Shown piece after piece: positions 18,071 to 42,701 of a DNA stretch of 64,000 nt. How positions within the stretch are numbered: the stretch's first letter is position 1; each line of letters starts with the position of its first letter. Made by a program: the position numbers and the translations under genes. The notes under the pieces are model-generated. The model saw only the letters and a program-made list of their open reading frames with translations, was not told the DNA's origin and searched no databases. Source of the DNA: Eledone cirrhosa (lineage: Eukaryota); assembly GCA_964016885.1 (NCBI GenBank), contig OZ024760.1, positions 25,544,001 to 25,608,000 of the forward strand. Direction: 5' to 3'.

Positions 18071-18360
18071 ACTTCTTCAATCCCATATATTGAAGCTGAA
18101 CTCCTTAATGTGTAACTCCTTAAAGTGGGACTAAATCAAGCATAAAACCTCACAAGAATCCAAATAGCTGAATTAACAGGTCCCTAATTAACATACCTCT
18201 AATTAACAGACCCTCTAAATAATATTTACTAATTTGACACAAGGCCAGCATTTAAATCAGTGCATTACTGGTACTTTATTTTATCGATGGGATTTGGATT
18301 TAGGCACAAGGTCAACCATTTGGAGGGAGAGGAAAGTCAATTAAATCGAACCCCAGTTCA

Positions 18361-19678
18361 TTACTGGTACTTCATTTTATCGCCCCTGTAAGGATGAAGG
18401 GCAAAGTTAACCCGTAAGAATGAAAAGCGAAGTTGACTTCAACAGGATTTGAACATGACTGCATGGGTGAGACGTGTTGTCACATGCTGCCTGTAAATTC
18501 TGTTCTAGCTGGCGTTTTATGGCTGGATGCCCTTATTCCAACGCAAAGTGCTGTAAAGCTATATGCTGTAAAGCATATTTTCTAGTGCTCCTTTCACAAT
18601 ATTCTGTTGGAACATGCATATGCAACCTACATGGGTCCTATCTTTGACAGGTAAATACCAGTAATATTACTAGTGTATTACTGGTACTTTATTTTATCGC
18701 CCCTGTAAGGATGAAGGGCAAAGTTAACCCGTAAGAATGAAAAGCGAAGTTGACTTCAACAGGATTTGAACATGACTGCATGGGTGAGACGGGTTGTCAC
18801 ATGCTGCCTGTAAATTCTGTTCTAGCTGGCGTTTTATGGCTGGATGCCCTTATTCCAACGCAAAGTGCTGTAAAGCTATATGCTGTAAAGCATATTTTCT
18901 AGTGCTCCTTTCACAATATTCTGTTGGAACATGCATATGCAACCTACATGGGTCCTATCTTTGACAGGTAAATACCAGTAATATTACTAGTGTATTACTG
19001 GTACTTTATTTTATCGCCCCTGTAAGGATGAAGGGCAAAGTTAACCCGTAAGAATGAAAAGCGAAGTTGACTTCAACAGGATTTGAACATGACTGCATGG
19101 GTGAGACGGGTTGTCACATGCTGCCTGTAAATTCTGTTCTAGCTGGCGTTTTATGGCTGGATGCCCTTATTCCAACGCAAAGTGCTGTAAAGCTATATGC
19201 TGTAAAGCATATTTTCTAGTGCTCCTTTCACAATATTCTGTTGGAACATGCATATGCAACCTACATGGGTCCTATCTTTGACAGGTAAATACCAGTAATA
19301 TTACTAGTGTATTACTGGTACTTTATTTTATCGCCCCTGTAAGGATGAAGGGCAAAGTTAACCCGTAAGAATGAAAAGCGAAGTTGACTTCAACAGGATT
19401 TGAACATGACTGCATGGGTGAGACGGGTTGTCACATGCTGCCTGTAAATTCTGTTCTAGCTGGCGTTTTATGGCTGGATGCCCTTATTCCAACGCAAAGT
19501 GCTGTAAAGCTATATGCTGTAAAGCATATTTTCTAGTGCTCCTTTCACAATATTCTGTTGGAACATGCATATGCAACCTACATGGGTCCTATCTTTGACA
19601 GGTAAATACCAGTAATATTACTAGTGTATTACTGGTACTTTATTTTATCGACCCCGTAAGGATGAAAGGCAAAGTTAA
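18361..19678. repeat. 317-bp tandem repeat, 4 near-identical copies plus a partial, containing SINE fragments
   Basis: ttactggtactt starts at 18361, 18678, 18995, 19312 and 19629 (spacing 317). Confidence 0.95.
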
Positions 19679-19804
19679 ACCCGGTTGGCGTGATGAAGTA
19701 GGTCCTTACAACTCGAGGGGCTCACTTCTGTGGGTGACCAACTCCGCCCCGATCGTACCAGTAATTTTCAGGTGCAAACATGTCACATTATTTCAGTCCC
19801 ACTC

Positions 19805-19991
19805 GTAGATTGGCAGTATCGGTAGAGGGTCGGACGCCATGCTTTGACGCATAAAGTTACGGCCCTTGCTATTCTGAGTTCAAATCCCGCTGAGGTTAAC
19901 TTTGCCTTTCATCCTTATGGGGTCGATAAAATAAAGTACCAGTAATACACTGGGTAATTGCTGGCCTTGTGCCAAAAGTAGAAACAATTAT
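19805..19991 (+). mobile_element. tRNA-type SINE family 1
   Basis: 18-bp TSD attatttcagtcccactc at 19787-19804 and 19987-20004. Confidence 0.9.
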
Positions 19992-20144
19992 TTCAGTCCC
20001 ACTCCCCTTCAGAATTTCTGATAGATAGATATATTGATAGAAAATGGTGTCTGATTTAGACACAAGGCTAATAATTTTGATTGAGAGGAAAGTTGATTAA
20101 ATACTGATTTACCTCATTGGACCCCGTACGGATGAAAGCCAACT

Positions 20145-20373: not shown

Positions 20374-20432
<59 letters not shown>

Positions 20433-20438
20433 TAATGT

Positions 20439-20655
20439 TAAGATCAAAAGATGGTTAAAAGAGTTCCATGTATTTTATTATGCGCATTTCAAAAACAAAT
20501 ATCATCATGCGATGACATTTGCGTTTTCGTCAGATAAAATAGGGAGACATGATATGAAGGTTAAAAAACACTTGTGAATAGTGCAGTTTTAAATCAATAT
20601 TTTGAAATGCGTATAATAAAATACATGGAACTCTTTTAACCATCTTTTGATCTTA
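20439..20655. mobile_element. Fold-back hammerhead element with 56-bp inverted arms
   Basis: Arms 20439-20494 and 20600-20655 are near-perfect reverse complements; adjacent to (TA)n. Confidence 0.7.
20471..20541 (-). ncRNA. Type I hammerhead ribozyme, intact core
   Basis: Reverse complement: tattttat-CTGACGA-aaacgcaaatgtcatc gcat gatgatatttgttttt-GAAA-tgcgca-TA-ataaaata. Perfect 8-bp stem I, 16-bp stem II (1 mismatch, 2 G-U), palindromic stem III ATGCGCAT, AUA cleavage triplet. Confidence 0.82.
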
Positions 20656-20759
20656 TATATTATTTATACTCCAGTCCTACAAACTGTAGAGTGCTACTTA
20701 TCCGATATCTGCATTGCTTTATTGTACTACAATAAAACTGACCTCCTACATATATATAT

Positions 20760-20813
<54 letters not shown>

Positions 20814-39906: not shown

Positions 39907-40216
39907 CGCGCACAGATATCTATATATATAATGAAGGTTTAGCAAATAAGATAAAGTTTCAAAATAAATTTTAAAAAATTAACTGTACTTACTATACTTA
40001 CTATGGTTACCTTTACCGAGTCGGTTTCGATTCTCAAAATAAACGGAGTCCATAAGGTCTTCGTTGCAAAGAAAGAATCTCGTCAGAAGGTTCTTTTCAT
40101 TCAGAGAATATAAAATTCTCGAATTCAAATTACGATATATATATATATATATATATACATATATACACAGAAACATATATATATATATATATATATACAT
40201 ATATACACACAAACAG

Positions 40217-41585: not shown

Positions 41586-41617
<32 letters not shown>

Positions 41618-41619
<2 letters not shown>

Positions 41620-42095
41620 GATATTAAATAAATGGAAACTATATTTATAAAACCATATTTATTTCATTATACATATTTCAGGGATACAAATTAAAATATG
41701 GTATGCCTCCATCAGACAAAATACAATATATAAACAGTTTTATAAATAATTTTGACGTACCCTATTAGATGCGACCATTATTTTTGGAAGCTGTCTGGAT
41801 ATCCAGACAGCTATCCAGACAGCTATCCAGACAGCTTCCAAAAATAATGGTCGCATCTAATAGGGTACGTCAAATTATTTATAAAACTGTTTATATATTG
41901 TATTTTGTCTGATGAAGGCATACCATATTTTAATTTGGTATCCCTGAAATATGTATAATGAAATAAATATGGTTTTATAATATAGTTTCCATTTATTTAA
42001 TATCGTATATCTACTCCAAAAACTTGTCGAGTGCTTTATATCGGTTATAAAATATTTACTTGTTGTATCCCAACAATTTTAAATAGAACTTTTGT
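41618..42095 (+). mobile_element. Penelope-pLTR-like fold-back element (palindrome 41618-42006 plus 3' extension)
   Basis: ~183-bp inverted arms; hammerheads at 41661-41722(-) and 41901-41965(+); homologous to 60554-60830. Confidence 0.7.
41901..41965 (+). ncRNA. Type I hammerhead ribozyme
   Basis: tattttgt-CTGATGA-aggcatacca/tattttaatt/tggtatccct-GAAA-ta tg t-ATA-atgaaata; 8-bp stem I with 2 G-U pairs. Confidence 0.7.
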
Positions 42096-42134
42096 ATATA
42101 TATATATATATATTATATATATATATACATATAT

Positions 42135-42701
<567 letters not shown>

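What the first reader, a model, noticed from the sequence alone, without database searches (positions are those of the whole stretch)
20439..20655. Best hammerhead candidate, embedded in a fold-back with an antisense copy of its own 3' half
Seen: an intact ribozyme at 20471-20541(-), with stem I tattttat/ataaaata, CUGACGA, a 16-bp stem II, GAAA, loopless palindromic stem III AUGCGCAU and AUA. The right arm (20600-20655) repeats GAAATGCGTATA-ATAAAATA and downstream sequence on the opposite strand. Known: such stem III palindromes favour dimeric hammerheads, and Penelope insertions often have inverted partial pLTRs. Inference: a read-through transcript would form a 56-bp dsRNA that sequesters the cleavage site.
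Basis: partly seen in the sequence, partly recalled or inferred. Interest (0 to 1): 0.75.

Follow-up and report, generated by a model that had tools for sequence, protein, structure and literature searches.

The report
Back-to-back Penelope retroelement end with hammerhead
This is one of many thousands of short, back-to-back insertion scars of a known kind of animal jumping gene, whose end carries a predicted self-cutting RNA fold; the fold-back is likely a by-product of how the element inserts, not a switch, and the scars suggest that the element copies capped, uncut RNA.

Summary
The hammerhead (20471-20541, minus) and the 56-bp inverted repeat are real. They are the end (pseudo-LTR) of a young, high-copy Penelope-like retrotransposon with the Hydra-clade signature: 17,477 exact matches to the core's 5' half, tandem 3.9-kb units, an intact 821-aa ORF elsewhere. 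The locus is a 5'-truncated head-to-head insertion in (TA)n: left arm without tail, right arm with a 95-nt tail. This layout is the family's norm (59 of 64 short insertions have an inverted arm) with junctions that differ from copy to copy, so the fold-back is an insertion by-product already described for Penelope elements. A read-through RNA would block the ribozyme, but RNA started at the element's inferred start would lack the antisense arm. Of more interest: 56 of 123 arm 5' ends fall in one 7-nt spot 70 nt upstream of the core, often with an extra G (cap-like; weak under the strict control), while ends at the cleavage site are not enriched. The templates were therefore likely capped and uncut. 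The scan reported this system before on other DNA of this genome. New member of a known kind.

The parts
20376..20428 (.). (TA)n target, left flank
   Evidence: sequence; all 30 loci have TA-rich repeat at both ends
20432..20600 (-). Left arm: pLTR copy without tail; 5' end at 20600, 2 nt short of the family's 5'-end hotspot; 98% identical to natural copy L102
20471..20541 (-). Type I hammerhead motif; predicted cut between 20479 and 20478 (triplet AUA)
20491..20526 (-). Stem II: 15 pairs, C-U mismatch (20523/20494), 4-nt loop; A-U closing pair
20480..20487 (-). Loopless palindromic stem III (8 nt), self-duplex -10.5 kcal/mol, not formed in the monomer
20600..20655 (+). Right arm: 5'-truncated pLTR copy starting 4 nt before GAAA; carries only the 3' half of the ribozyme, with one change in stem III
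20656..20750 (+). Tail, about 95 nt, present on the right arm only; in full-length copies it leads into the 5' leader and ORF of the next unit
20751..20808 (.). (TA)n target, right flank

Best explanation
The locus is a short head-to-head insertion of a Hydra-type Penelope-like retrotransposon into a (TA)n repeat, and the fold-back was likely made during insertion when each of the two nicked target strands primed its own cDNA on element RNA and the two cDNAs were then joined at their far ends. One cDNA likely began at the pLTR end (left arm, no tail) and ran almost to the RNA's inferred capped start; the other likely began about 95 nt further downstream (right arm, tail) and stopped early, just past GAAA. 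The hammerhead is the element's ordinary pLTR ribozyme, kept foldable in the active lineage, predicted to be weak as a monomer and to need a second copy or protein help. Shown: family, architecture, two fixed 3' ends, 5' hotspot. Inferred: double priming, RNA start, cap, catalytic activity.
For: Family: 40 of 40 scored candidates of 1824 match the whole unit at 90-100%. Sequence upstream of the pLTR runs through about 1.1 kb into an ORF; tandem units of about 3.9 kb with an intact 821-aa frame. Hydra motifs DKT, RW, CxCx5C, CxxC, CxH found, CX2-5CxxC absent. Two fixed 3' ends, each followed by (TA)n: 1,097 and 5,800 exact matches, controls 0. Of 90 insertions chosen by tail end only, 26 have a tail arm over 300 nt; of the 64 short ones 59 have an adjacent inverted arm, 45 of these ending at the no-tail end in (TA)n, none classed as tail on both arms, 14 unclear. 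32 minus-then-plus pairs among the first 100 listed core matches (hand count). 5' ends: 56 of 123 within -262..-256, whereas the longer stem III palindrome (-144..-137) holds 1 of 123. G before the -259 end in 33 of 70 against 21 of 139 elsewhere, p 1.5e-6. All 8 variable pairs of stems I and II keep pairing in 14 variants. The Anolis PLE protein cuts and extends both strands, starts internally at two sites bounding the tail and uses uncut RNA (PMC11167929).
Against: No RNA or biochemical data. Under the strict control the extra G is weak: 10 of 20 against 10 of 46 (p 0.04; p 0.09 when C is left out); many G's can be read as templated by the partner arm. No two-sided compensatory change, and 362 of 500 shuffles reach the observed score. 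Pfam and PDB do not recognise the protein, so RT and endonuclease are assigned from motifs, look-alike clusters and by-eye likeness to published Hydra proteins; no tree. One tail-selected insertion (L034) has tails on both arms. Self-priming gives similar palindromes (PMC3846280).
Confidence: 0.8

Rival explanations
1. The inverted arm arises by self-priming (snap-back) of one cDNA or of an antisense RNA at the short palindrome near -259, not by priming from both target strands.
For: 43 of 290 arm starts at the hotspot motif are perfect palindromes centred on ATAT; short snap-back and repeated copies of the first 10-15 nt occur. Proposed for rotifer Penelopes (PMC3846280, passages).
Against: Arms often differ in length with no palindrome at the joint, as at this locus. 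Simple snap-back does not explain why the second arm stops at the other fixed end, about 95 nt short of the tail end, directly in (TA)n.
Confidence: 0.12
2. One reading: the antisense arm works as a brake that sequesters the cleavage site in a read-through RNA.
For: Fold: MFE -115.9 kcal/mol and stem I probability 0.00 in the read-through RNA. An earlier scan note (e1-8806526, not tested here) reports ADAR-like edits in such dsRNA elsewhere in the genome.
Against: Breakpoints differ among copies and among contigs of another run (many joints from 20597). The locus is 98% identical to other young copies, has no ORF, and the antisense arm lies upstream of the inferred start.
Confidence: 0.05
3. 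The 315-nt unit is an independent non-autonomous element (MITE- or retrozyme-like) that moves as a unit.
For: 40 near-identical whole-unit matches; inverted ends; hammerhead.
Against: The inner junction varies among the 30 loci aligned; arms are contiguous with the autonomous element elsewhere; not in the tandem array that defines non-LTR retrozymes.
Confidence: 0.03

Closest known systems
Hydra clade of C-terminal EN+ Penelope-like elements (Craig et al. 2021, PMC8557442; section 11, passages and supplement searches read), e.g. Hydra-1_Obim
   Same: Single ORF, DKT, RW, CxCx5C linker, CxxC and CxH around the endonuclease end, canonical hammerhead, (TA)n targets, partial tandems, inverted 5'-truncated copy, one-sided tail.
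   Different: A distinct family: protein visibly diverged from Hydra-1_Obim and a different hammerhead (by eye). Unit 3.9 kb against under 3 kb; tail about 95 nt against 30-40; RWT for RWK; an Asn-rich insert of about 65 aa before the linker; very high copy number with many intact frames.
Hammerheads in pLTRs of metazoan PLEs (Cervera and de la Pena 2014, PMC4209133; parts 1-2 of 4 read)
   Same: Type I, long stem II, small palindromic stem III, mostly solo truncated copies, some pairs 100-700 bp apart on opposite strands; dimer-dependent, low activity.
   Different: A-U instead of the conserved G10.1-C11.1, no extra base after position 9, 8-bp stem I, 16-position stem II with a fixed mismatch.
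Poseidon_Ac of Anolis, in vitro (Frangieh et al. 2024, PMC11167929; parts 1-2 of 4 read)
   Same: Two internal RT start sites bounding the tail, AT-rich target, both strands extended, uncut RNA as template.
   Different: Other clade; there the ORF starts in stem II, here the ATG lies about 210 nt downstream of the cut. The parts read do not address inverted arms or a capped 5' end.
Inverted pLTRs with palindromic junctions in Adineta Penelopes (Arkhipova et al. 2013, PMC3846280; passages read)
   Same: Head-to-head inversion, tail on one arm, palindrome at the joint, Asn-rich inserts.
   Different: Read there as self-priming on antisense RNA; target-site duplications visible there, hidden in (TA)n here.

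Membership tests
Type I hammerhead ribozyme | CUGANGA and GAAA cores, NUH triplet, three helices closed by stem I | tested here: met
   285 of 311 family copies keep the pattern, only N7 varies in the core
Type I hammerhead ribozyme | G10.1-C11.1 pair (highly conserved, not obligatory) | tested here: not met
   A-U in the window, G-U in a minor subfamily
Type I hammerhead ribozyme | Structure-preserving variation | tested here: inconclusive
   8 of 8 variable pairs keep pairing, none two-sided, shuffles 362/500; slid controls 38-63% paired against 100%
Type I hammerhead ribozyme | Match to an Rfam hammerhead model | tested here: not met
Type I hammerhead ribozyme | Site-specific self-cleavage | not testable with these tools
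   needs an assay; genomic 5' ends show no excess at the site
EN+ Penelope-like elements | pLTRs from partial tandems, inverted 5'-truncated copy, one-sided tail | tested here: met
EN+ Penelope-like elements | Single ORF with RT and C-terminal GIY-YIG | tested here: inconclusive
   821-aa frame with QFDI, YRDD and an IY..YFG motif; Pfam and PDB blank (RVT_1 in 1 of 16 members at E 0.012); Atlas look-alikes score 0.95-0.98, some with GIY-YIG or RVT_1
Hydra clade | DKT motif | tested here: met
   SDKT at 143
Hydra clade | RWK motif | tested here: met
   RLRWT at 56, aligned with RWK/RWE of homologues; third residue differs
Hydra clade | CxCX5C linker instead of CX2-5CxxC | tested here: met
   CNCRIKNKC at 680; no CX2-5CxxC
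Hydra clade | CxxC and CxH flanking the conserved E and N | tested here: met
   780 and 808
Hydra clade | Insertion in (TA)n; canonical hammerhead | tested here: met
Hydra clade | Generally short (under 3 kb) | tested here: not met
   tandem period about 3.9 kb; a tendency, not a diagnostic
Hydra clade | Placement in the Hydra clade of an RT tree | not tested
   published sequences could be viewed only
Non-LTR retrozymes | Tandem protein-free units, each with a hammerhead | tested here: not met
   single inverted insertion continuous with an ORF-bearing element

The most novel reading that the evidence does not exclude
The thousands of fold-back scars of this family record the Penelope insertion reaction in vivo: reverse transcription starts internally at two sites near the 5' end of the capped mRNA, from both target strands, and runs off at the cap through an uncut hammerhead. 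The ribozyme would then act outside the copying step (for example in trimming tandem RNA or in translation), and the genome alone would map the start site, the cap and both priming sites.
Probability: 0.45. Interest if true: 0.6.

Novelty: new member of a known kind. Interest (0 to 1): 0.3.

Why it matters
The locus itself is ordinary. The family is useful: it is young, has many intact ORFs and over ten thousand junctions, so it offers a ready test of two open points named in the literature read: how Penelope elements form inverted ends and tails, and what their hammerheads do. The junctions suggest that cut RNA is seldom the template.

Tried and rejected
Rfam: no hammerhead hit. Idea that arms ending at the cleavage site are fossils of cut RNA: first suggested by five loci, not upheld. 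In one search, of 100 listed rows 28 were dropped by hand as internal deletions, duplications or a duplicate locus; of 72 junctions 11 end at the cut (-135) but 10 end at -130 and 10 at -138, which also end in AT. In one search, 3 of 123 end there, as at two other positions. In one search about 3 of roughly 60 hand-read junctions. A small share of cut templates is not excluded. MITE or retrozyme reading rejected (variable junction, continuity with the ORF). Neptune-clade guess rejected (no CX2-5CxxC). RNA: no RNA holder listed. Contigs of four runs of unknown kind hold the family and many other joints, but none was listed for this locus's own junction; a hole proves nothing. Pfam and PDB searches blank. 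The last fold used a wrong start and timed out; it is not used. Literature searches listed no paper combining Penelope-like elements with twin priming or a cap-derived G; subscription papers, Repbase and bioRxiv supplements were not searched, so this is no proof of absence.

Full report
Observation. The minus strand of 20471-20541 holds a complete type I hammerhead pattern: 8-bp stem I, CUGACGA, a 16-position stem II (15 pairs, one C-U mismatch, A-U closing pair), GAA, the palindrome AUGCGCAU and A17 at 20479. The inverted repeat 20439-20494 / 20600-20655 is 56 nt and 98% complementary. Rfam does not recognise the motif. The unit lies between two (TA)n runs, and the right arm continues for about 95 nt beyond the inverted repeat.

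A family, not a one-off. The window lies in a 3.0-Gb genome. A search with 20430-20745 gave 1824 candidates; all 40 scored match nearly the whole query at 90-100%. In 30 aligned loci both outer ends are fixed and flanked by TA-rich repeat, the left arm stops near the same inner point, and the right arm starts at different points. These loci were chosen by likeness to the query, so they are not used for junction statistics on their own. The 5' half of the core has 17,477 exact matches, control 0.

The parent element. In other loci the sequence upstream of the left arm's inner end continues through about 1.1 kb of untranslated DNA into a reading frame. A protein search gave 21,386 candidates, and many of the 150 scored lie in open frames of 821 aa. 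Full copies are tandems of about 3.9 kb: pLTR with hammerhead, tail, leader, ORF, 3' region, pLTR. The protein has QFDI and YRDD, SDKT, RLRWT, CxCx5C, an IY..YFG motif, CxxC and CxH, and no CX2-5CxxC; 15 homologues at 31-38% share these. These are the Hydra-clade diagnostics of Craig et al. 2021 (PMC8557442, section 11). By eye it is related to, but distinct from, Hydra-1_Obim. Pfam and PDB give nothing for it; Atlas look-alikes include GIY-YIG and RVT_1 clusters. No tree was built.

How the fold-back is built. Coordinates: last A of the tail = -1 (window 20750); pLTR end about -96 to -83; cut between -136 and -135; core -190. Both 3' ends occur directly before (TA)n: 1,097 and 5,800 exact matches. 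I took 90 of the first 100 listed tail ends. 26 have a tail arm longer than 300 nt. Of the 64 short ones, 59 have an inverted piece of the element next to them; 45 of these end at the no-tail end in (TA)n, 14 are unclear or run beyond the locus, and 5 show no inversion. One both-tail case was seen in another set (L034). The window's locus is a typical case: left arm from -257, right arm from -151, one shared T. Inverted truncated copies with a one-sided tail are described for PLEs (PMC8557442; PMC3846280). The Anolis PLE protein cuts and extends both strands and starts at two internal sites that bound the tail (PMC11167929). I infer that each target strand primed one cDNA, one at each site, and that the cDNAs were joined by short overlaps.

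The 5' hotspot. Among loci chosen by 3' end only, 56 of 123 arm 5' ends lie in -262..-256, 32 at -259, after a long pyrimidine-rich tract at a C|A step. The longer stem III palindrome holds 1 of 123, so palindromic annealing alone does not explain the spot. Over all loci, the base before a -259 end is G in 33 of 70, against 21 of 139 at other ends (p 1.5e-6). With junctions that the partner arm can explain removed, it is 10 of 20 against 10 of 46 (p 0.04; 0.09 without C). An untemplated 5' G is read as a copied cap in L1 insertions (PMC9341517, passage). Drosophila Penelope has an internal promoter (PMC2377424, passages). I infer a capped start at -259, about 70 nt upstream of the core; this is likely, not shown.

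Does the ribozyme cut the template? Arms that begin at -259 span the cleavage site, so their templates were uncut. Ends exactly at -135 are not enriched over neighbouring AT ends: 11 against 10 and 10 of 72 hand-read junctions (28 rows dropped), and 3 of 123. This agrees with the in vitro result that uncut RNA is the template. The fold still looks maintained: 285 of 311 copies keep the pattern, only N7 varies in the core, and all 8 variable pairs keep pairing, although none changes on both sides and the shuffle control is uninformative. Stem III has probability 0.00 in the monomer, and the palindrome self-duplex gives -10.5 kcal/mol, as expected for dimer-dependent PLE hammerheads of low activity (PMC4209133).

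In a read-through RNA the right arm would abolish stem I (0.00 against 0.87). But the right arm lies upstream of the inferred start, its length is arbitrary across copies, and the locus has no ORF. The duplex is a possible side effect, not a design.

Novelty. New family member of a known clade and known architecture. The scan's earlier notes on other DNA of this genome already describe hammerhead-bearing PLE ends, the two-end rule, Hydra membership, the stem II mismatch and a start-site reading; my reading was fixed before I looked. A look-up by sequence gave nothing. Papers seen: PMC11167929 and PMC4209133 parts 1-2 of 4; PMC8557442 abstract, passages, section 11, supplement searches; PMC3846280, PMC2377424, PMC9341517 passages; bioRxiv 10.64898/2026.07.22.740005 part 1 of 5 (its supplements are closed and could list related families). 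Interest 0.3.

Noticed in passing
window 41590-42100: A second, different hammerhead family with the same layout: fold-back of about 180 bp arms in (TA)n, complete hammerhead on the plus strand near 41901-41966 in the tailed arm, loopless stem III, and a C-C mismatch at the same fourth position of stem II where this family has C-U.
   Followed up: partly
window about 40000-40095, minus: A third hammerhead motif (5-bp stem I, long stem II, larger stem III) in a short TA-flanked element.
   Followed up: no
window 18352-19951 and 20050-20142: A 317-bp unit repeated four times at 99% identity, plus an inverted pair (19623-19678 / 19896-19951), built on a SINE-like repeat; the likeness to a cephalopod SINE is recalled, not tested.
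   Followed up: no
window 42246-42464 and 58921-59212: Further long fold-backs centred on (TA)n, seen as spurious miRNA matches.
   Followed up: no
L153 protein P0002, residues about 600-675: Asn-rich insert of about 65 aa between RT and the CxCx5C linker, absent from the homologues; similar inserts are described in rotifer Penelopes.
   Followed up: no
window 20661-20690; L153 just after the tail end: A small hairpin is predicted a few bases downstream of each of the two 3' ends; conservation not tested.
   Followed up: partly
L074; G000:C1:123807507: The first 10-15 nt of the inferred RNA start are repeated several times at some junctions, like repeated template jumps.
   Followed up: no
rows: About a dozen copies lack three bases at the cleavage triplet; most simply slippage in a short direct repeat.
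   Followed up: no
L095, L102, L110: Other Penelope-like ORFs lie near these copies; the one in L110 has Pfam RVT_1 and GIY-YIG hits.
   Followed up: no
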